NCBI GenBank assembly: GCA_027031765.1
Contig: JALVPN010000012.1
Location: 2,741-14,776, forward strand
Direction of reading: 5' to 3'
DNA: 12,036 bases
From: Promethearchaeota archaeon
Lineage (GTDB): Archaea; Asgardarchaeota; Thorarchaeia; Thorarchaeales; Thorarchaeaceae
How positions within the stretch are numbered: the first letter of the stretch is position 1; every line of letters begins with the position of its first letter. Under the pieces are notes generated by a model. It was not told the DNA's origin. It searched no databases and saw only the letters and a list, made by a program, of their open reading frames with translations. Made by a program: the position numbers and the translations under genes. Below are positions 1-7,619 of the stretch, one piece after another.

Positions 1-420
1 TTCCTCGTCAGCTCCGTGGCTGCAGTGGGCCTCGTACCCTTCGATGCCCCGGTGGCCGACTCGGAGGTGCTGTTCGGCTGGCGGACGGAGTTCTCAGGCA
101 TCTACTTCACCATGACGTACTTTGCGGAGTTCGCAGAGCAGCTCCTGTACAGTGCACTGATGGTCTCCCTGTTCCTTGGCGGCTCCAATGGGCTGCCATA
201 CGTACCACCAGTAGTGAACTTCCTCATCAAGCTCCTCGTGGTGCTCTTCGTGTTCATCGTTGTGACGTCAGCGTTCTACCGGATCCGACAGGACCAGATC
301 GTGCGGTACAGCTGGAAGTACCTGCTGCCACTGTCCGTGCTGAACATCGCACTTGCCCTCGTGGCAGTTGCCTACATCCCCGGACTGGCAGCCGCCCTCG
401 GGACAACAGGAGGTGGGTAA
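1..420 (+). CDS. nuoH: Complex I-like membrane subunit H (NuoH/ND1 family), C-terminal part; 5'-truncated by the window edge
   Basis: Frame 1 is open from base 1 (FLVSSVAAVGLVPFD...) to TAA 418-420. It has ND1-family motifs PFDxPxAxSE, G-W-x-TEFSG, FAE, LFLGG, RxRxDQ and WKxLLPL, and lies directly upstream of nuoI. Confidence 0.92.
   Translation, partial: FLVSSVAAVGLVPFDAPVADSEVLFGWRTEFSGIYFTMTYFAEFAEQLLYSALMVSLFLGGSNGLPYVPPVVNFLIKLLVVLFVFIVVTSAFYRIRQDQIVRYSWKYLLPLSVLNIALALVAVAYIPGLAAALGTTGGG
409..415 (+). promoter_or_regulatory. Shine-Dalgarno-like site for nuoI; analogous sites at 837-841, 2351-2356, 4555-4561 and 6104-6109
   Basis: GGAGGTG-type sequence, complementary to the 16S 3' end, lies 6-8 nt before each of five consecutive internal start codons. 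Gene gaps are -4 to +12 nt. Confidence 0.7.
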
Positions 421-421
421 G

Positions 422-853
422 ATGGGAGCACTCGCGACGCTGGGCGACATGTTCAGGATACTCAGGCACGTGTTCCGCCAGATATTCACGCGGCCGTTCA
501 CGTACTTCTACCCCTTTGAGGACCGTTACTACCCTGAGCGGACCCGGGGCAGGCACATCCACATCCGTGAGAACTGCACCGGCTGCGGACAGTGCGTGAG
601 GGCATGCCCTACTGTGGCGATCAGGATTGACAAGTCCGACCGCAAGTACGAGAAGGACGCTGCCCTCTACTTTGACTATACGAGGTGCATCTTCTGTGGC
701 CTGTGCGTCCAGGCCTGCAGGTTCAATGCACTGTTCCACACAAAGGTCGTGGACATCAGCGAGGGGGAGAGAGAAGACCTCCTCTACGGCCCTGACAAGA
801 TCACCACGCTTGACAGGGAGCCCCTCGAGTGGCGCGGGAGGCGGTTCCGATGA
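422..853 (+). CDS. nuoI: Complex I-like 2x[4Fe-4S] ferredoxin subunit I (NuoI family), 143 aa
   Basis: ATG 422 follows SD-like GGAGGTG (409-415), 1 nt after the nuoH stop. Contains T-x-x-YP-F-E, RGRH, CTGCGQCVRACP and CIFCGLCVQAC, and C-terminal R-x-DLLY. The ORF-track start at 353 is upstream inside nuoH and is not favoured. Confidence 0.92.
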   Translation: MGALATLGDMFRILRHVFRQIFTRPFTYFYPFEDRYYPERTRGRHIHIRENCTGCGQCVRACPTVAIRIDKSDRKYEKDAALYFDYTRCIFCGLCVQACRFNALFHTKVVDISEGEREDLLYGPDKITTLDREPLEWRGRRFR

Positions 854-2352
854 TACCGTTCATGGCACTGTCACTGGCAACGCTCTTCTTCGGTGGACTC
901 TTCATCTACATGGCCAAAGAGGCCTTGGGTCATGGTGCGGGGCGCGTTGCTACCGCCATCGCCGCGGTCTCTGCGGGCCTGATGGCACCACCCTTCTATC
1001 AGGCCTTCGTCGCGCGGACGGCCGTGCGGGAGGAGATGCATTGGTCAGAGGTGATGGGCAGCTTCGGCCTGTACCTCGATGGCATTGCGGCCCCCATCAC
1101 ACTGGCAGTGGTCGTCCTGGGCCTACTCTCAGTCCTGTACGCTGTCGGGTACACCGAGCACACTGAGCACAGGGCCACGTTCTTTGCCAACCACCTGTTC
1201 TTCGTCATGGGCATGCAGTGGGTGACCCTGGCCACCAACCTGCTTGAGTTCTTCATCGCGTGGGAGATCATGCTGGTGCCCAGCTACTTCCTCATCCTCT
1301 TCTGGGGGCTGCCCGAAACACGCCGCAGGACTGCCATGAAGTTCTGGCTCTACACACAGTCCGGCGCCATGTGTATCCTTGTGGGCTTTGGCCTGCTGTA
1401 CTACTTTACCGGCTCGTTCGAGATGGACACGATAGTCCAGCTCCTGCCCACGTTCATCGGACAGCTTGATGCCCTCAAGCTCATCTTCGTACTGCTGGCC
1501 GCCGGGTTTCTGGTCAAGATGGCAGTGTTCCCACTCCACTGGTGGCTGCCACCCGTGCACGCTGAGGCGCCCACTCCCATCTCGGTACTGCTGTCGGGTG
1601 CGATGATAGAGACCGGCGCATACGCACTGGTGCGGTTCGGCACCATCATGCTCGGCCCTGCTGCTGCAGCCCTCTCATTTGGCCTCGGCGTGCTGGGCGT
1701 GCTGACCATGTTCTATGGTGGCCTCATGGCCCTCGTGCAGGCGGACATAAAGAGGCTCCTCGCATACTCCTCGGTCTCACAGATGGGCTACGTCCTGTTC
1801 GCACTGGGGATGTACACGACCTACGGGGTCGCAGGTGGGCTCTTCCACCTGATAGGCCATGCCTTCTCAAAGGGCCTCCTGTTCATGACCGCCGGCGCCG
1901 TGATACACCAGACCGGCCTGCGCGATGTCCACAAGATGGGTGGCCTGTCCAACAAGATGCCCGTGACCGCGTTCTCAGCTGCCATCGGCGCCATGAGCAT
2001 TGCTGGCAGCCCGCCACTGGTGGGTTTCATCGGTGAGTTGATGATGTTCCTCGGCGGCTTCCAGGCCGCCATGGTCAGCGGTACCGGGGTGGCCAGGCCC
2101 GAGTTCCTGTTCCTCGGCATAGTCGCGGTGTCGAGCTCGATACTGAGCGCCGGGTACATGCTCAGGTTCATTGCAAAGGTCTTCCTGGGCCCGAGCCCAG
2201 AGGAGCTCGAAGAGGTCACAGAGGCCCCACGGACGATGACTGCTGCCATGGCCCTGCTGGCAGCCCTCATAGTGGTGTTCGGGATATTCCCCGGCCCCGC
2301 CCTGGACGTGATATTCCCTGCTGTGGAGGCGATCAGCAACATAATACCGTGA
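850..2352 (+). CDS. Additional proton-pumping antiporter-like subunit (NuoM/MrpD-like), 500 aa
   Basis: ATGA overlap with the nuoI stop (850-853) and GGAGG at 837-841. Polytopic hydrophobic protein with LDG, FFIAWE (TM5 Glu), KFWLYT, VKMAVFPLHWWLP-x-x-HAEAPTP (TM7 Lys), LLAYSSVSQMG, HAFSKGLLF and PPLVGFIGE. Family membership is clear, but the subfamily (NuoM vs MrpD/MbhH-like) is ambiguous. Confidence 0.88.
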   Translation: MIPFMALSLATLFFGGLFIYMAKEALGHGAGRVATAIAAVSAGLMAPPFYQAFVARTAVREEMHWSEVMGSFGLYLDGIAAPITLAVVVLGLLSVLYAVGYTEHTEHRATFFANHLFFVMGMQWVTLATNLLEFFIAWEIMLVPSYFLILFWGLPETRRRTAMKFWLYTQSGAMCILVGFGLLYYFTGSFEMDTIVQLLPTFIGQLDALKLIFVLLAAGFLVKMAVFPLHWWLPPVHAEAPTPISVLLSGAMIETGAYALVRFGTIMLGPAAAALSFGLGVLGVLTMFYGGLMALVQADIKRLLAYSSVSQMGYVLFALGMYTTYGVAGGLFHLIGHAFSKGLLFMTAGAVIHQTGLRDVHKMGGLSNKMPVTAFSAAIGAMSIAGSPPLVGFIGELMMFLGGFQAAMVSGTGVARPEFLFLGIVAVSSSILSAGYMLRFIAKVFLGPSPEELEEVTEAPRTMTAAMALLAALIVVFGIFPGPALDVIFPAVEAISNIIP

Positions 2353-2364
2353 GGTGCACAGAGA

Positions 2365-4566
2365 ATGCTCTTCGGACTGCCGTACTATCTCATCCTTGTG
2401 CTCCCCCTTGCAGGTGGGCTGCTGGTGCCCGTGGTGGGACGCATCAGCGCAAAGGCCCGCGACTGGACGCCTGCAGTCATAATGGGTATTGCCATGGTCT
2501 TCTGCTGGTCGCTCCTGCCCGAGGTCAACAGCCCCACAGGCACGACCAGCTGGGTCTGGGTCGCAGCGCTTGACCTGCGCTTCGGAGTCCTCCTCGACCC
2601 GCTCTCTGTGGTCATGGCCGTACTGTCGAGCACGCTGTGTTTCCTGATCTATGTCTACTCCACCGAGTACATGGCCCACGAGGACGACCGTGACAGGTTC
2701 TTCTTCCTCATGCTCACATTCGGTGGGGGTATGCTCACCCTCGTGCTCAGCGACAACCTCCTCATCGCCTTCATCGGCTGGGAGATCATGGGCTTCTGTT
2801 CTTACGGCCTCATCGGTTTCTGGAACGACAAGAAGAACCCCCCTGAGAGGGAGCCCGACGGCATTGAGTACAGGAACCCGCTCCTGCAGTTCGAGACCGA
2901 GGGCGAGTACAACACCCACTGCGGGACAAAGGCGTTCATTGTCACCAGGATAGGTGACGCGTTCATGCTCGGGGGGATACTCCTGCTGTTCCTGTTCACC
3001 GGCACCTTCTCGTTCACGGAGATGGCAGAGGACGCACAGGGCTGGTGGGAGGTGATGTCGGGCATCGGCATGCTCGTACCCACCTTCTTGCTCATCTTTG
3101 CAGGCGCCATTGGCAAGTCCGGACAGGCGCCGCTCCAGGTCTGGCTACCCGAGGCCATGGCCGGCCCGACATCTGTGAGTGCGCTCATCCACGCAGCGAC
3201 CATGGTGAAGGCTGGTGTCTACATCACGGCCCGTTTCCTGGTCACCATGGCAGGTGCTGCCGGCAGTGAGGGCACCACCGGCCACGCGTTCCTGCCACTC
3301 CAGATGGTCGGCATGGGTGCTGCGTCCCAGTTCTTCACGGTGGTGGCAGTGGTCGGGGCAGTGACTGCGCTCATGACCGCCACCATGGGCATGGTGTCCA
3401 ACGAACTGAAACAGGTGCTCGCATTCAGCACCCTGAGCCAGCTCGGGTACATGATGCTGGCCATCGGCACCGGCGGTCTCCTCGCCCACTATGAGGAGGC
3501 ATACCTGAGTGGTGTCCTCCATGTCGTCAGTCACGGTGCCTTCAAGGCACTCCTGTTCCTCGCCTCTGGGGGCATCATCCACGCCCTGCACACCAAGTAC
3601 ATGACGAAGATGGGCGGGCTCAAGGAACACATGCGCAAGACGTTCATAGTGATGTGGGTGGGCGTACTGGCGCTGTCAGGGATCCCGCCGTTCTCAGGCT
3701 TCTGGTCAAAGGACTCCATAATCGAGTACACCTACGAGCTCGCGCTCCACGAGCCGCTCGGACTCGTACTGTTCGCGTTCGCCGTGCTCGCAGCAGCATG
3801 CACGATATTCTACAGCATCCGGCTCATGGGGCTCACATTCTACGGCCCGCCAAGGGGCCAGGGCGGCGACAGTGAGGACGGGCACGCAGGTCACGGTCAC
3901 GGGGAGGGACACATGCCCCACGACCCCGGCCCGGCCATGATGGTCCCACTGTACATCCTCGCAGCATTCACCGTCCTCGCCTTTGCCGTGTTCCCGTTCA
4001 TCGAGGCGCTGGTGCTCCAGACCGGGCCGCTGACGGCAGAGGGGTGGGCCGAAACGCTGGGACACATGGTGGCCGCAAAGGTGACCATGCCCGGCCTCGT
4101 CCCGTTCGTACTGACAGTGGCGGCCCTGCTGGTCGGTGGGATACCGGCCTACGTCATCTACATACGGAACGCGGACACACCGAACAGGCTCGTACCCGAG
4201 TCCGGGGTCAGGCGGAGGGTCTACAACTTCCTCCGTCACAGGTGGTACATCAACGAACTGTACTACTGGCTGCTGTACCAGTTCCTGCGGGTGACGAGCT
4301 GGTGGCGGGAGCACGTGGACAACCGTGTGATTGACGGGATTGACTTCAAGTCCGCTGACACCGCCGTCTCGCTCTCCGGCCGCGTGCGCTGGTTCGACGA
4401 CCACGTTGTCGACGGCCTCGCTGAGGGCATCTCGAGGACAAGTGTTGGGATTTCAGAGAGCGGCCAGGCCGTGCAGACGGGCCGGGTCAATGACTACGTG
4501 TCGATGATGATGTTCGGCATCGGGATGCTCGTACTCATCGTCCTGATAACCCTGGGGGTGATATGA
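2365..4566 (+). CDS. nuoL: Complex I-like subunit L (NuoL/ND5 family), 733 aa, with extended lateral helix
   Basis: SD-like GAGGTG 2351-2356. Motifs LLDPLS, YSxxYM, DNLL, GWEIMGFCSYGLIGFW, KAFIVTRIGD, GKSGQAPLQVWLPEAMAGPTSVSALIHAATMVKAG, LAFSTLSQLGYM, HGAFKALLFL, GIPPFSGFWSKD, WYINELY, QTG and a terminal TM helix. Confidence 0.95.
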   Translation: MLFGLPYYLILVLPLAGGLLVPVVGRISAKARDWTPAVIMGIAMVFCWSLLPEVNSPTGTTSWVWVAALDLRFGVLLDPLSVVMAVLSSTLCFLIYVYSTEYMAHEDDRDRFFFLMLTFGGGMLTLVLSDNLLIAFIGWEIMGFCSYGLIGFWNDKKNPPEREPDGIEYRNPLLQFETEGEYNTHCGTKAFIVTRIGDAFMLGGILLLFLFTGTFSFTEMAEDAQGWWEVMSGIGMLVPTFLLIFAGAIGKSGQAPLQVWLPEAMAGPTSVSALIHAATMVKAGVYITARFLVTMAGAAGSEGTTGHAFLPLQMVGMGAASQFFTVVAVVGAVTALMTATMGMVSNELKQVLAFSTLSQLGYMMLAIGTGGLLAHYEEAYLSGVLHVVSHGAFKALLFLASGGIIHALHTKYMTKMGGLKEHMRKTFIVMWVGVLALSGIPPFSGFWSKDSIIEYTYELALHEPLGLVLFAFAVLAAACTIFYSIRLMGLTFYGPPRGQGGDSEDGHAGHGHGEGHMPHDPGPAMMVPLYILAAFTVLAFAVFPFIEALVLQTGPLTAEGWAETLGHMVAAKVTMPGLVPFVLTVAALLVGGIPAYVIYIRNADTPNRLVPESGVRRRVYNFLRHRWYINELYYWLLYQFLRVTSWWREHVDNRVIDGIDFKSADTAVSLSGRVRWFDDHVVDGLAEGISRTSVGISESGQAVQTGRVNDYVSMMMFGIGMLVLIVLITLGVI

Positions 4567-4567
4567 G

Positions 4568-6112
4568 ATGCAGCTCGCAACCGCCACTGATATCCTCAAC
4601 AGCCTGCCAATGGATGTGCTCCCACTGATGCTCCTCCTGCCCCTGGGAGGCGCCGTGGTCGCATACGCCCTCGGGGACCGTGGGGCCCGGGCCGTGACGC
4701 TCCTTGTCTCTGCCGCCGAGCTGGTGCTCTCAGTCGTCCTGGCACTGGCCTTTGACCCGTCAATCGCACCGTCAGACCCAAGTGCCGGGATGCAGTACGT
4801 CTGGTCGGTGACCGTCGGCAGGATACGGGCGGGCGGCAGCGAGACGGACCTCCAGTTCCTGGTGGGCGTCGACGGCATCTCTGTGGTCATGGTTGTCCTC
4901 TCGAACCTGGTGGTGTTCATTGCGGTGCTCGCATCACACCACATCCATGAGGCCCAGACCATGTACTATGCGCTCCTACAGACACTGATGACAGGCCTGC
5001 TGGGAGTGTTCATGGCCCTCGACCTCATTGCCTTCTTCGTCTTCTGGGAGCTCGTCCTGATACCGATGTTCTTCATCATTGGCCGCTGGGGCGAGGAGGG
5101 CTGCCAGCACGCTGCAGTCAAGTTCTTCATCTACACCCACCTCGGTTCAGTAGTGATGCTGGTCGGTTTCTTCGTGCTGTACTTTGTTGCCGAGCCACAC
5201 ACCTTCAACATGGTGGCGCTCCGGAACATGGGGCTGCCACCTGAGGTGCAGGTCGGCTTTGCGCTGGCCGTGTTCATGGGTGCAGGGGTGAAGCTCCCTG
5301 TGTGGCCGCTGCACAACTGGCTCCCCTGGGCACACGTGAAGGCACCCACGCCCGGTTCCGTGATCCTCGCAGGCATCCTGCTAAAGATGGGTGGCTACGG
5401 CTTCATACGACTCGGCCTCTGGATGGTGCCTGACGCCTTCGCGAGGCTCGGTATCGTCTTCGCCGCCCTCGCAGTGTTCACGTGCGTCTATGCAGCCCTC
5501 ACCGCCATGGCCCAGACCGACCTCAAGAGCATGGTGGCGTACACGTCCATCAACCACATGTCGTGGGTGCTGCTTGGTGTCGCAGTGGCCGCAGTGGGCA
5601 TGCAGCTGGGCCTCCAGTCTGCTGCGTCCCTGGCCGTCCAGGGGGCGGTGTTCATGATGTTCTCCCACGGGACAATCATCTCCGTCATGTTCATCATGGC
5701 AGGTCAGCTCAAGTACTCGGCCGGCACGAGAGAGATCCCAGAGGTCAGGGGACTGATGGAACGTGCACCACGCCTCTCCCGAGTGCTCGTCGTCGCGTCG
5801 CTTGCAGCCTTCGGCCTGCCGGGCTTCAGCGGCTTCGTTGCAGAGGCACTCGTCCTCTTCGGCTCTGTCAACGTCTACATCTGGACGGCGCTGATTGCGT
5901 TCGGGGTCTTCTTCACTGTGGGCTACCTGCTGTGGACACTGAACAGGATAGTGTTCAGCGACCCCGACCCGGAGGCGGAGGTCACAGACGCCACGGCTGC
6001 CGACCTCATAGCACCGGTACTGATGATGGTGCCTGTGTTGCTGCTCGGGGTCTGGCCAGACCTGGTGCTCACGCTGGTCGCGCCCGTGGCACAGTTCATG
6101 CTGGGAGGTTGA
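4568..6112 (+). CDS. nuoM: Complex I-like subunit M (NuoM/ND4 family), 514 aa
   Basis: ATG 1 nt after the nuoL stop, SD-like GGGGTGA 4555-4561. Canonical NuoM motifs GVDGIS, DLxxFFVFWELVLIPMFFIIGxWG, KFFIYT, VKLPVWPLHNWLPWAHVKAPTPGSVILAGILLKMGGYG, AYTSINHM, SHG, GLPGFSGFVAE and GVWP. Confidence 0.95.
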   Translation: MQLATATDILNSLPMDVLPLMLLLPLGGAVVAYALGDRGARAVTLLVSAAELVLSVVLALAFDPSIAPSDPSAGMQYVWSVTVGRIRAGGSETDLQFLVGVDGISVVMVVLSNLVVFIAVLASHHIHEAQTMYYALLQTLMTGLLGVFMALDLIAFFVFWELVLIPMFFIIGRWGEEGCQHAAVKFFIYTHLGSVVMLVGFFVLYFVAEPHTFNMVALRNMGLPPEVQVGFALAVFMGAGVKLPVWPLHNWLPWAHVKAPTPGSVILAGILLKMGGYGFIRLGLWMVPDAFARLGIVFAALAVFTCVYAALTAMAQTDLKSMVAYTSINHMSWVLLGVAVAAVGMQLGLQSAASLAVQGAVFMMFSHGTIISVMFIMAGQLKYSAGTREIPEVRGLMERAPRLSRVLVVASLAAFGLPGFSGFVAEALVLFGSVNVYIWTALIAFGVFFTVGYLLWTLNRIVFSDPDPEAEVTDATAADLIAPVLMMVPVLLLGVWPDLVLTLVAPVAQFMLGG

Positions 6113-6116
6113 ACAC

Positions 6117-7619
6117 ATGGTGTTACCGCTACAGCTCAGTGACTTGTTGCAGGCGCTCACGGCGCCTATACGTGATGTCCTCGTGCGGTTCGTCCCGGAA
6201 CAGTGGATGGGCTCGCTGCCCGCCCTGACCCTCGTCCTCTTCGCTGTGCTGGCCCTCCTCGTGGGCCGACACGTCAACCCGCTCCCTGTGAGCCTGCTCG
6301 GCGTCGTCCTGTCGGCGGTCACAGTCGTGACCCTTGACGCATCGACATACGGTAGCTCCTTCGGGGGACTGTTCGTCAGGGACGCGTTCTCAGACTTCTT
6401 CATCTACATCATCCTCATCGTGGCGGTGCTCGTCCTCGTCTCTTCCACTCTCTATGGTGGTGACAAGGGGCCCTACGACTTCCTCCTCCTGACATCCATG
6501 GCCGGTGCCATCTGGGTGGTCATGGCCACAGACCTCGTGGGCCTGTTCCTCGCCTGGGAGCTCATGTCGACCCCCACCTATGTGCTCACCGCCCTCGGCC
6601 CTCACAGGGGGGCTGTCGACGGCGCCGTGAAGTACTTCGTGATGGGGATGATGGCCTCTGCACTGATGCTGTTCGGGATTGCCCTTGTCTATGGCGTGAC
6701 CGGCAGCACCGAGCTGGCGACGGTAGCTCAGACCCTCAACACGATGTCTGCCGACCCGACGGTGGCCCCCACGATGTCACCGACCGTGCTCCTCGCCGTC
6801 GTGCTGTTCATCCTCTCCTTCGGCTTCAAGACCGGCATATTCCCGGGCTGGATGTGGGTGCCGGACACATACTCGACCGCTGACGGCAGCGTAACGGCCT
6901 ACCTCGCAGGTGCGACCAAGAAGACAGGTGTGAGCGCCCTCGTCAGGATCCTCATGGTCGGCCTGCTCGTGTCACAGCTTGAGTGGACCCTCCTGCTGGT
7001 AGTCGTCTCCATAATGACCATGGTCATAGGCAATGTCCTTGCGCTGGCGCAGAAGAACATCATGAGAATGCTCGCCTACTCGAGCATCGCAATGATGGGA
7101 TACCTCTTCATCGGGCTGGCAGCAGGCACTGAGTTCGGCCTCGCAGCAGCCATCTTCCATGCATTCATCCACGCCCTCCTCAAGACCACAGCCTTCATAC
7201 TCGTCTGGGCCATGGCGGTCAGGCTCAGAAAGGTGATAACATATGACGACCTGGTCGGGCTCAGCGAGCGCTCGCCACTCGCGGCTGCCCTGCTGTGCCT
7301 CGCCGTGTTGGGTCTGCTCGGCGTGCCGGTGACTGGCGGCTTCTGGTCAAAGCTATTCCTGTTTCAGAGCGCCGTGGAGGCCGACATGTGGTGGCTGGCC
7401 CTGATAGGGGCGCTGAACACGGTATTCTCACTGGGCTACTACCTCCGGGTGGTGAGGTCGTGCTACATGGCCGCACCGACAAGGGATGACACCGTTGCGC
7501 TTGCAAGAGGACCACTCATCGTGTCCGTGCTGGCCATGCTGGTGGCGACTGTGCTAGCAGTTGTGCCTGGCCTCGTGTTCGACTATGCCCTTGTTGCAGC
7601 CCGTGCAGTGATGGGCTAA
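6117..7619 (+). CDS. nuoN: Complex I-like subunit N (NuoN/ND2 family), 500 aa
   Basis: SD-like GGAGGT 6104-6109. Motifs DLVGLFLAWELMSTPTYVL, KYFVMG, LFGIALVYGxTGS, FGFKTG, WVPDxY, GNVLALAQKNIxRMLAYSSIA and GxPxTGGFWSKLFLF, in the terminal position after nuoM. Confidence 0.9.
   Translation: MVLPLQLSDLLQALTAPIRDVLVRFVPEQWMGSLPALTLVLFAVLALLVGRHVNPLPVSLLGVVLSAVTVVTLDASTYGSSFGGLFVRDAFSDFFIYIILIVAVLVLVSSTLYGGDKGPYDFLLLTSMAGAIWVVMATDLVGLFLAWELMSTPTYVLTALGPHRGAVDGAVKYFVMGMMASALMLFGIALVYGVTGSTELATVAQTLNTMSADPTVAPTMSPTVLLAVVLFILSFGFKTGIFPGWMWVPDTYSTADGSVTAYLAGATKKTGVSALVRILMVGLLVSQLEWTLLLVVVSIMTMVIGNVLALAQKNIMRMLAYSSIAMMGYLFIGLAAGTEFGLAAAIFHAFIHALLKTTAFILVWAMAVRLRKVITYDDLVGLSERSPLAAALLCLAVLGLLGVPVTGGFWSKLFLFQSAVEADMWWLALIGALNTVFSLGYYLRVVRSCYMAAPTRDDTVALARGPLIVSVLAMLVATVLAVVPGLVFDYALVAARAVMG

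What the first reader, a model, noticed from the sequence alone, without database searches (positions are those of the whole stretch)
850..7619. Complex I-like operon with FOUR antiporter subunits plus a matching helix extension: candidate high-stoichiometry proton pump in a probable Asgard archaeon
Seen: four full-length antiporter-like ORFs in one coupled operon (850-2352, nuoL, nuoM, nuoN), each retaining the TM5 Glu and TM7 Lys. The extra gene is fused in by an ATGA overlap with nuoI and has its own SD-like site, and NuoL has a duplicated 26-aa helix segment. Established: canonical complex I has three such subunits; '2M' complexes with a fourth pump and an insertion in the NuoL amphipathic helix were described by Chadwick et al. 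2018 (ISME J) as arising convergently. Inference: this is a four-pump complex. The extra gene lies BEFORE nuoL rather than beside nuoM and is very divergent from the resident NuoM, suggesting an independent origin by recruitment rather than recent nuoM duplication. I cannot tell whether this lineage's version has been reported.
Basis: partly seen in the sequence, partly recalled or inferred. Interest (0 to 1): 0.85.

Follow-up and report, generated by a model that had tools for sequence, protein, structure and literature searches.

The report
Four-pump complex I relative, Thorarchaeota
This Asgard (Thor-type) archaeon encodes a relative of respiratory complex I with four instead of three ion-pumping membrane subunits and a correspondingly longer strap helix. 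It is a lineage-wide variant of the already described "extra-pump" design, but the extra pump was recruited from a different subunit lineage and is not a copy of its neighbour.

Summary
Window 850-7619 holds four full-length antiporter-like genes (X, nuoL, nuoM, nuoN) in one tightly packed operon. The ATGA overlap with nuoI is real. All four keep the TM5 Glu and TM7 Lys. NuoL carries a genuine 26-residue tandem module in its lateral helix.

The organism is a Thorarchaeota-type Asgard archaeon. The order nuoI-X-nuoL-nuoM-nuoN recurs in every Thor and other Asgard locus fetched; a Bathyarchaeota locus has nuoK-X-nuoL-nuoM.
- All 10 four-pump loci have a helix span of 78-80 residues. Eight three-pump loci have 50-54.
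- Among 38 genomes of the same family, the long-helix NuoL was never found without X.
- X belongs to the NuoM superclade but is not a duplicate of the resident NuoM (AU test p = 1e-5). It groups with M-position subunits of other archaeal clusters, including group 4 hydrogenases.

Caveats:
- Physical incorporation of X and the H+/e- ratio are untested.
- Long helices also occur where only three pump genes are found.
- Donor and acceptor are unknown: NuoB is fused to a GlcD-like flavoprotein and NuoD lacks the quinone-binding Tyr.

This scan has already met the same design in other Thorarchaeota genomes. I class it as a new variant of the known "2M" kind, of moderate interest.

The parts
1..420 (+). 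C-terminal part of nuoH (the gene starts upstream on contig C12)
   Evidence: PF00146 E 6e-32. The full gene is read in L001 plus the window.
422..853 (+). nuoI, two-[4Fe-4S] ferredoxin-like subunit (143 aa from the ATG at 422)
   Evidence: TIGR01971 NuoI E 3e-24 and Fer4 domains. AGGAGG lies at 408-413 and the nuoH stop at 418-420. Ortholog lengths are 143-151 aa.
836..841 (+). Shine-Dalgarno-like GGGAGG, 8 nt before the X start codon
   Evidence: Read directly from the sequence.
850..2352 (+). X: fourth antiporter-like subunit. It is M-type (TM12 Glu), with E139, K223, E254, H333, H337, K341 and E396.
   Evidence: PF00361 E 1e-72 and TIGR01972 308.9 bits, above the cut-off. Key residues. More than 120 ortholog clusters in Thorarchaeota at 67-79% identity. 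Its clade has 99/97 support. Best solved relatives are MrpA, MBS chain 6u8y_X, NuoM and MbhH.
2365..4566 (+). nuoL with a lengthened lateral helix HL (733 aa)
   Evidence: NuoL models score 493 and 467 bits. The span from the RWYIN motif to QTG is 79 residues, against 50-54 in three-pump loci.
4312..4389 (+). HL module 1 (NuoL residues 650-675)
   Evidence: Tandem copy of module 2, shuffle p = 8e-5. AF2 predicts it helical but with low confidence.
4390..4467 (+). HL module 2 (NuoL residues 676-701), directly before the conserved QTG
4568..6112 (+). Resident nuoM, canonical complex I type
   Evidence: TIGR01972 436.6 bits. Groups with bacterial NuoM at 100/99 support. Best solved hits are NuoM chains at 254 and 225 bits.
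6117..7619 (+). nuoN
   Evidence: TIGR01770 302 bits. Groups with bacterial NuoN at 99/97 support.

Best explanation
The window holds the distal half of a complex I-like operon of a Thorarchaeota-type Asgard archaeon. Joined across two contigs, the full set is: a GlcD-like FAD oxidase fused to NuoB, one or two unknown ORFs, then nuoA, J, K, C, D, H, I, X, L, M, N. No NADH module (NuoEFG) lies in the cluster.

X is a functional, M-type antiporter-like subunit. I infer that it is assembled into the membrane arm between NuoL and the NuoN/NuoK end, giving four pump modules in a row. One extra 26-residue module in the NuoL lateral helix (about 39 A if fully helical) would let the helix and its TM16 anchor still reach across the longer arm. 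If each module moves one ion per cycle, as in canonical complex I, the enzyme would move about five ions per two electrons instead of four. That suits a low-potential donor such as ferredoxin, or operation in reverse.

X was not made by duplicating the resident nuoM. It comes from a separate lineage of M-type subunits that also supplies the M-position subunit of other archaeal complex I-like and group 4 hydrogenase clusters. The resident M and N are of canonical complex I type.

Shown: gene content, coupling, conservation, residue retention, helix length, co-occurrence and phylogeny. Inferred: physical incorporation of X, its position in the arm, the stoichiometry, the direction of operation and the substrates.
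For: 1. One operon. ATGA overlap between nuoI and X, and gaps of 12, 1 and 4 nt between the pump genes.

2. Conserved synteny. I-X-L-M-N recurs in Thor loci L003 and L005-L007 (L010 is cut inside X, so nuoI is not seen there), in other Asgard lineages L033 and L034, and in L036. A Bathyarchaeota locus, L013, has K-X-L-M.

3. Purifying selection. E139, K223, H333, H337, K341 and E396 are invariant, and E254 is kept in 120 of 121 X orthologs.

4. Helix length. The HL span is 78-80 residues in all 10 four-pump loci. It is 50-54 in 8 three-pump loci, including this genome's own second cluster.

5. Co-occurrence in the same family. Of 38 genomes, 26 have both X and the long-helix NuoL, 11 have neither, one very fragmented genome has X only, and none has the long NuoL without X. 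Of five X-less genomes checked, three (G016, G027, G037) carry only a normal-helix NuoL of the other type, and two (G128, G140) gave no NuoL match at E 1e-40.

6. Phylogeny. The L, N and M superclades are resolved. The Asgard X clade has 99/97 support. The resident M groups with bacterial NuoM at 100/99. Monophyly of X plus resident M is rejected (delta lnL 78, p-AU 1e-5).

7. Solved-structure scores. X scores MrpA 196, MBS chain 6u8y_X 177, NuoM 175 and MbhH 168 bits. The resident M scores NuoM 254 and 225, MbhH 118 and MrpA 107 bits.

8. The 11 core subunits are all present. A, J and the B fusion lie at the end of contig C172, and K, C, D and H at the start of C12. The NuoB domain keeps all four N2 Cys.
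Against: - No structural, biochemical or expression evidence shows that X is in the complex.
- The helix-length rule has exceptions. Thermoprotei locus L011 has a three-module helix (span 107), yet I found only three PF00361 genes in that genome, whose completeness is unknown. Yu et al. 2022 report the 26-aa insertion in three-pump complexes of Manganitrophaceae. Earlier follow-ups in this scan say the same for many single-nuoM bacterial clusters.
- Genomes with and without the feature are relatives, so the co-occurrence counts reflect few independent events.
- The AF2 monomer of NuoL gives the helix region pLDDT of only 36-45.
- A canonical quinone-coupled mechanism is doubtful. The NuoD Tyr that binds the quinone head group is Met here, and Leu or Phe in relatives. 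No MqnA-family hit was found in the genome, which is 95% complete.
- The tree holds only two bacterial complex I references and no published 2M sequences.
Confidence: 0.72

Rival explanations
1. X is co-expressed but is not an extra in-line pump, and the 26-residue helix module is unrelated to it. X could be an alternative or assembly-stage M subunit, giving three-pump complexes that contain either X or the resident M.
For: The 26-aa helix extension occurs where only three pump genes are found: L011, Manganitrophaceae Complex_I_1 and Complex_I_2 (Yu et al. 2022), and earlier scan follow-ups on bacteria. X and the resident M are both M-type, each with a TM12 Glu.
Against: X and M are encoded in the same tightly coupled operon in every locus seen, which fits stoichiometric co-assembly better than alternation. 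In this lineage the long-helix NuoL was never found without X. Three-pump relatives all have the short helix.
Confidence: 0.13
2. X docks outside the L-to-N row, for example distal to NuoL, or works as an Mrp/Mbh-like cation module that exchanges Na+ for H+ and does not add a proton pump.
For: X scores best against MrpA among solved chains, and about equally against the MBS, NuoM and MbhH subunits. Its central TM8 Lys is replaced by Glu.
Against: No small MrpB/C/E/F/G-like or MbhA-G-like genes were seen in the operon. The TM8 Glu is shared with the sole M-position subunits of three-pump archaeal clusters, so it is a family trait of a working M subunit. A distal position would leave the helix extension unexplained.
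Confidence: 0.1
3. The arrangement is an assembly or binning artefact that joins genes from different complexes.
For: The genome is a fragmented MAG of 229 contigs, and the operon is split between contigs C172 and C12.
Against: The same order is found on long contigs of many independent assemblies. X orthologs lie on contigs of up to 609 kb, and orthologs of the NuoB fusion on a 3.16 Mb contig. A public metagenome run holds 97% of the sampled words of window 1-7700, though it may be the sample the window was assembled from.
Confidence: 0.01

Closest known systems
'2M' complex I (Chadwick, Hemp, Fischer & Orphan 2018, ISME J 12:2668). I read it only through citing papers PMC9040806, PMC7117926 and PMC7300363. 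Examples are Nitrospira, Chloroflexi (nuoL-M1-M2-N) and heterotrophic marine Thaumarchaea ('clade 2').
   Same: Four antiporter-like subunits in one nuo cluster. The extra one is NuoM-type. NuoL helix HL carries an insertion of about 26 residues. Repeated independent origins are proposed.
   Different: Here the extra gene sits between nuoI and nuoL, not beside nuoM. It is not a sister of the resident NuoM (AU p = 1e-5), and it scores as close to MrpA, the MBS subunit and MbhH as to NuoM. The operon is rearranged (J and K lie ahead of C-D-H-I), NuoB is fused to a flavoprotein, and NuoD lacks the quinone Tyr. Whether Asgard sequences fall in one of the published 2M clades could not be checked.
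Complex_I_3 of Ca. Manganitrophaceae (Yu et al. 2022, PMC9040806)
   Same: More than three pump subunits, assembled from parts of different ancestry, with a 26-aa HL insertion in the helix-bearing subunit.
   Different: That complex has five pumps, with two MrpD-like subunits replacing NuoL, and it is bacterial. The Thor complex keeps a single NuoL and adds one M-type subunit.
Canonical 11-subunit ('headless') complex I / NDH-1 / Fpo-like enzymes
   Same: Core subunits A, B, C, D, H, I, J, K, L, M and N are all present, and no NuoEFG lies in the cluster. The N2 Cys ligands are kept, and L, M and N keep the canonical charged residues.
   Different: There is a fourth pump. NuoB is fused to a GlcD-like FAD domain. 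NuoD has Met at the position of E. coli NuoCD Tyr273. The gene order differs.
Group 4 [NiFe] hydrogenases and the MBH/MBS complexes (PDB 6cfw, 6u8y), including this genome's own second cluster
   Same: X groups with the M-position subunits of such archaeal clusters and scores well against MBS chain 6u8y_X and MbhH.
   Different: The NuoD of the four-pump complex lacks the NiFe Cys motifs. This genome's second cluster (contig C127) has them.

Membership tests
2M-type (four-pump) complex I | Four antiporter-like subunit genes in one nuo gene cluster | tested here: met
   X, L, M and N each match PF00361 and are tightly packed.
2M-type (four-pump) complex I | The extra subunit is NuoM-type | tested here: met
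   TIGR01972 308.9 bits against a cut-off of 263.8. TM12 is Glu, as in NuoM. X lies inside the M superclade, support 100/100.
2M-type (four-pump) complex I | Insertion of about 26 residues in NuoL helix HL | tested here: met
   Span of 79 residues against 50-54 in three-pump loci. The two 26-aa modules resemble each other at p = 8e-5.
2M-type (four-pump) complex I | The extra nuoM lies beside the resident nuoM as its duplicate (as the citing papers describe for Chloroflexi and Thaumarchaea) | tested here: not met
   X lies between nuoI and nuoL. Monophyly of X plus resident M is rejected at p-AU 1e-5.
2M-type (four-pump) complex I | Placement within one of the published 2M clades | not testable with these tools
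   The paper is not held, and I had no named Nitrospira, Chloroflexi or Thaumarchaea 2M sequences.
2M-type (four-pump) complex I | Four pumps physically in one membrane arm, with an extra ion per cycle | not testable with these tools
   The four subunits total 2247 residues, and complex prediction takes at most 1000. No biochemistry is available.
Respiratory complex I (quinone-reducing, NADH-dependent) | Eleven core subunits A-D and H-N | tested here: met
   The subunits are spread over the end of contig C172 and the start of C12. The same order is seen uninterrupted in L003 and L006.
Respiratory complex I (quinone-reducing, NADH-dependent) | NuoEFG NADH module encoded with the complex | tested here: not met
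   None lies in the cluster. The single NuoF-like gene is on another contig, C47.
Respiratory complex I (quinone-reducing, NADH-dependent) | NuoD quinone-binding His and Tyr (E. coli NuoCD H224 and Y273) | tested here: not met
   The His is kept. The Tyr position is Met here, and Leu, Met or Phe in relatives.
Respiratory complex I (quinone-reducing, NADH-dependent) | Four Cys ligands of cluster N2 in NuoB | tested here: met
   The Cys at E. coli NuoB positions 63, 64, 129 and 158 are all kept in the fusion's C-terminal domain.
Group 4 [NiFe] hydrogenase (Mbh/Hyf type) | Two CxxC NiFe-binding motifs in the large subunit | tested here: not met
   The NuoD on C12 has neither complete motif. The paralog on C127, like E. 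coli HyfG, has both.

The most novel reading that the evidence does not exclude
The Thorarchaeota enzyme is a chimeric energy converter of a kind not yet described. A four-pump arm, built by adding an Mrp/Mbh-lineage M-type subunit to complex-I-type L, M and N subunits, is driven by or drives a flavin (GlcD-like, 2-hydroxyacid-type) head fused to NuoB, at a NuoD site that has lost the quinone Tyr. It might, for example, use the ion gradient to push electrons from a 2-hydroxyacid up to ferredoxin, or pump about five ions per ferredoxin-driven cycle onto an unknown acceptor. That would be a new bioenergetic module in Asgard archaea, the group held to be the closest prokaryotic relatives of eukaryotes.
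Probability: 0.2. Interest if true: 0.8.

Novelty: new variant of a known kind. Interest (0 to 1): 0.5.

Why it matters
Extra-pump complex I enzymes bear on how much energy a cell can conserve per electron pair, and on whether such complexes run forwards or in reverse. If the reading holds, many Thorarchaeota and several other Asgard lineages carry a four-pump version that arose by recruiting a foreign M-type subunit. That would be one more independent route to the same architecture. It would also give Asgard archaea a high-stoichiometry (or reverse-running) membrane complex with an unusual flavoprotein head. Both points matter for models of Asgard energy metabolism and for understanding how modular the complex I family is.

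Tried and rejected
- The Chadwick et al. 2018 paper is not held, by DOI or by PMC id. I used citing papers only.
- No paper in the library holds both 'Thorarchaeota' and that paper's title phrase. Searches for an Asgard NuoB-flavoprotein fusion and for '2M complex I' with archaea found nothing relevant. The 2024 Asgard respiration preprint describes shorter arms, not longer ones.
- AF2 of NuoL alone, with an 18-row alignment: the helix region is predicted as three helical pieces but at pLDDT 36-45, so it is inconclusive.
- Complex prediction was not sent. Any pair of antiporter-like paralogs would probably dock by likeness to solved structures, without telling the possible positions apart.
- Sequencing runs: no RNA holder is listed. 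The only holder is one hydrothermal-vent metagenome, probably the source sample.
- An MqnA-family search of the genome gave no hit, and I draw no conclusion about quinones from that.
- The promoter/terminator scan downstream of nuoN found nothing above chance.
- Rejected: X as a tandem duplicate of nuoM.
- Rejected: X as part of the separate hydrogenase module, which has its own L, M and N on contig C105.
- Rejected: the TM8 Lys-to-Glu change as a sign of decay. It is conserved, and it is shared with the sole M-position subunits of other archaeal clusters.
Full report
**What is in the window.**
The six-frame ORF list and the Pfam and NCBIfam scans give the following genes, all on the + strand unless marked:
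- the end of nuoH (1-420)
- nuoI (422-853; start read)
- an antiporter-like gene, here called X (850-2352)
- nuoL (2365-4566, 733 aa)
- nuoM (4568-6112)
- nuoN (6117-7619)
- an SBF/ACR3-like transporter (8081-9289)
- a NosD-like beta-helix protein on the minus strand (9592-12036)

The nuoI stop and the X start overlap as ATGA, with GGGAGG 8 nt upstream. The gaps X-L, L-M and M-N are 12, 1 and 4 nt. Aligned to E. coli NuoL/M/N, all four large subunits keep the TM5 Glu and TM7 Lys.

**Organism and whole operon.**
The window is G000:C12:2741-14776.
- Upstream on C12 lie a 5'-truncated nuoK, then nuoC, nuoD and nuoH.
- Contig C172 ends with a 662-aa fusion of a GlcD-like FAD oxidase (PF01565 and PF02913) to NuoB, then unknown ORFs, then nuoA and a 3'-open nuoJ.
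- The same uninterrupted order is seen in Thor loci L003 and L006: fusion, unknown, A, J, K, C, D, H, I, X, L, M, N.
- The NuoB domain keeps all four N2 cysteines.
- No NuoEFG gene lies in the cluster. The only NuoF-like gene is on contig C47.

**A second complex in the genome.**
The genome holds a second, separate complex I-like set: NuoB on C217, C-D-H-I on C127, and J1-J2-K-L-M-N on C105. Its large subunit has both NiFe CxxC motifs, so it is a group 4 hydrogenase with its own three pump subunits. X therefore does not belong to that module.

**Is X a working subunit of this operon?**
More than 120 protein clusters at 67-79% identity, nearly all labelled Thorarchaeota where a name is given, include one from the early Thorarchaeota MAG SMTZ1-45. 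Across 121 orthologs:
- E139, K223, H333, H337, K341 and E396 are invariant.
- E254 is kept in 120.

The TM8 Glu, where NuoL/M/N have Lys, is not a defect. The sole M-position subunits of three-pump archaeal clusters L011, L012 and L015 have it too.

The order I-X-L-M-N recurs in Thor loci L003 and L005-L007 (L010 is cut inside X), in two other Asgard families (L033, L034) and in L036. L034 has a free 152-aa NuoB between K and C. A Bathyarchaeota locus (L013) has K-X-L-M.

**The helix.**
I measured the span from the conserved RWYIN-type motif to the QTG that precedes TM16.
- It is 78-80 residues in all ten four-pump loci.
- It is 50-54 in eight three-pump loci: E. coli, Ferruginibacter, this genome's own C105 NuoL, L012, L015 and L030-L032.
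- The extra length is a tandem copy of a 26-residue module (NuoL 650-675 and 676-701). The copies share 7 of 26 identities, with shuffle p = 8e-5. Similar significance holds in the other four-pump NuoLs.
- An AF2 model of NuoL alone predicts the region as helical pieces but at pLDDT 36-45, which decides nothing.

**Co-occurrence.**
I compared, within the same taxonomic family, the genomes sampled for X and for the long-helix NuoL. Of the 38 genomes in both samples:
- 26 have both genes, adjacent wherever the positions of both were listed.
- 11 have neither.
- One assembly of 700 contigs has X only.
- None has the long-helix NuoL without X.

Of five X-less genomes checked directly, G016, G027 and G037 carry only the other, normal-helix NuoL type. 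G128 and G140 gave no NuoL match at E 1e-40. The genomes are relatives, though, so the number of independent events is small.

**Limits of the helix argument.**
- Thermoprotei locus L011 has a three-module helix (span 107), yet I found only three PF00361 genes in its genome, whose completeness is unknown.
- Yu et al. 2022 report the 26-aa insertion in three-pump complexes of Manganitrophaceae.
- Earlier follow-ups of this scan report it in many single-nuoM bacterial clusters.

A longer helix is thus compatible with a fourth pump but does not prove one. Here the case rests on the combination of operon coupling, residue conservation, and strict co-occurrence of X with the long helix.

**Origin of X.**
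A 61-row tree resolves the L, N and M superclades. A more careful 45-row tree (LG+C20 PMSF) shows:
- The five Asgard X sequences, together with one unnamed metagenome protein (P0128, whose own locus L036 also reads I-X-L-M-N), form a clade (99/97) among archaeal M-position subunits.
- The resident M forms a clade (100/97) that is sister to bacterial NuoM (100/99).
- The resident N groups with bacterial NuoN (99/97).

Forcing X and the resident M into one clade costs 78 log-likelihood units (p-AU 1e-5).

Scores against solved structures agree. X hits MrpA (196 bits), MBS chain 6u8y_X (177), NuoM (175) and MbhH (168). The resident M hits NuoM at 254 and 225 bits, and MbhH and MrpA only at 118 and 107.

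The Bathyarchaeota X and L fall in other subclades than the Asgard ones, while its M groups with the Asgard resident M. This hints at more than one assembly event, and the helix module number (1, 2 or 3) varies within one NuoL subclade. The tree has only two bacterial complex I references and no published 2M sequences, so the relation to Chadwick's clades stays open.

**How it probably works.**
By analogy with solved complex I, I infer the following. X sits in the row between NuoL and the NuoN/NuoK end, the two-module helix spans the added width, and the enzyme moves roughly one more ion per cycle.

What drives it is unclear:
- The NuoD His is kept, but the quinone-binding Tyr is Met.
- No MqnA-family gene was found.
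- NuoB carries a GlcD-like flavin domain (best named model glcD, well below its cut-off).
- An HdrD/GlcF-like CCG protein lies nearby.

A 2-hydroxyacid/quinone couple could not pay for five ions. From general redox values, the likelier options are a ferredoxin-driven forward mode or a gradient-driven reverse mode. This is speculation.

**Known or new?**
Four-pump '2M' complexes with a 26-aa helix insertion are established for Nitrospira, Chloroflexi and marine Thaumarchaea. A five-pump hybrid is known in Manganitrophaceae. I found no paper in the library that links Thorarchaeota to this design. The 2024 Asgard respiration preprint does not mention it.

This scan has already met the same design in other Thorarchaeota genomes. 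I class it as a new variant of a known kind, distinguished by:
- a recruited, non-tandem extra subunit
- a rearranged operon
- a flavoprotein-fused NuoB
- a NuoD without the quinone Tyr

Noticed in passing
G000 contig C172 (locus L026) 5685-7673, outside the window: A 662-aa fusion of a GlcD-like FAD oxidase (PF01565 and PF02913) to NuoB, with all four N2 Cys kept. It is conserved as a protein of about 646 aa in some 45 Thorarchaeota protein clusters. In another Asgard lineage (L034) NuoB is free and lies between nuoK and nuoC.
   Followed up: partly
L001 878-2026 (nuoD, upstream on C12): The NuoD of the four-pump complex keeps the His of the quinone site but has Met at the position of the quinone-binding Tyr (E. 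coli NuoCD Y273). Relatives have Leu, Met or Phe there. It lacks the NiFe Cys motifs.
   Followed up: partly
G000 contigs C217, C127 (L027) and C105 (L002 8050-14089): A second complex I-like system is split over three places. Its large subunit has both NiFe CxxC motifs, so it is a group 4 hydrogenase. Its J1-J2-K-L-M-N membrane genes lie apart from its B-C-D-H-I genes.
   Followed up: partly
L011 7851-10004 (Thermoprotei MAG B12_G16): This NuoL has three tandem helix modules (span 107 residues), although I found only three antiporter-like genes in that genome (order K-N-L-M). What lies under the surplus helix is unexplained.
   Followed up: partly
L035 5189-13372 (JGI metagenome contig): A complex I-like cluster reads A-C-D-H-J-K followed by three antiporter-like genes of 493, 485 and 468 aa. 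None is long enough to carry a NuoL-type lateral helix.
   Followed up: no
Proteins P0124, P0126, P0127, P0131 and others: Among the best library hits to X are single polypeptides of 1250-1330 aa with two or three PF00361 domains, that is, fused antiporter-like subunits.
   Followed up: partly
window 2365-4566 (NuoL residues about 155-185, 295-320 and 495-522): Besides the helix module, the four-pump NuoLs carry extra loops. One is an insertion of about 30 residues after TM5. Another is a His/Glu-rich loop before TM15 (GHAGHGHGEGH here), which is variable in length among orthologs.
   Followed up: no
L026 75-1271 (-), contig C172: An HdrD/GlcF-like protein (CCG domain plus two [4Fe-4S] motifs) lies about 4.4 kb upstream of the flavo-NuoB gene on the opposite strand, with unknown membrane-protein ORFs between them.
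   Followed up: partly
window 8081-9289 (+) and 9592-12036 (-): Downstream of nuoN lie an SBF/ACR3-like transporter and a large NosD-like beta-helix protein (814 aa or more) with PKD/Ig-like repeats. Both are apparently unrelated to the operon.
   Followed up: no
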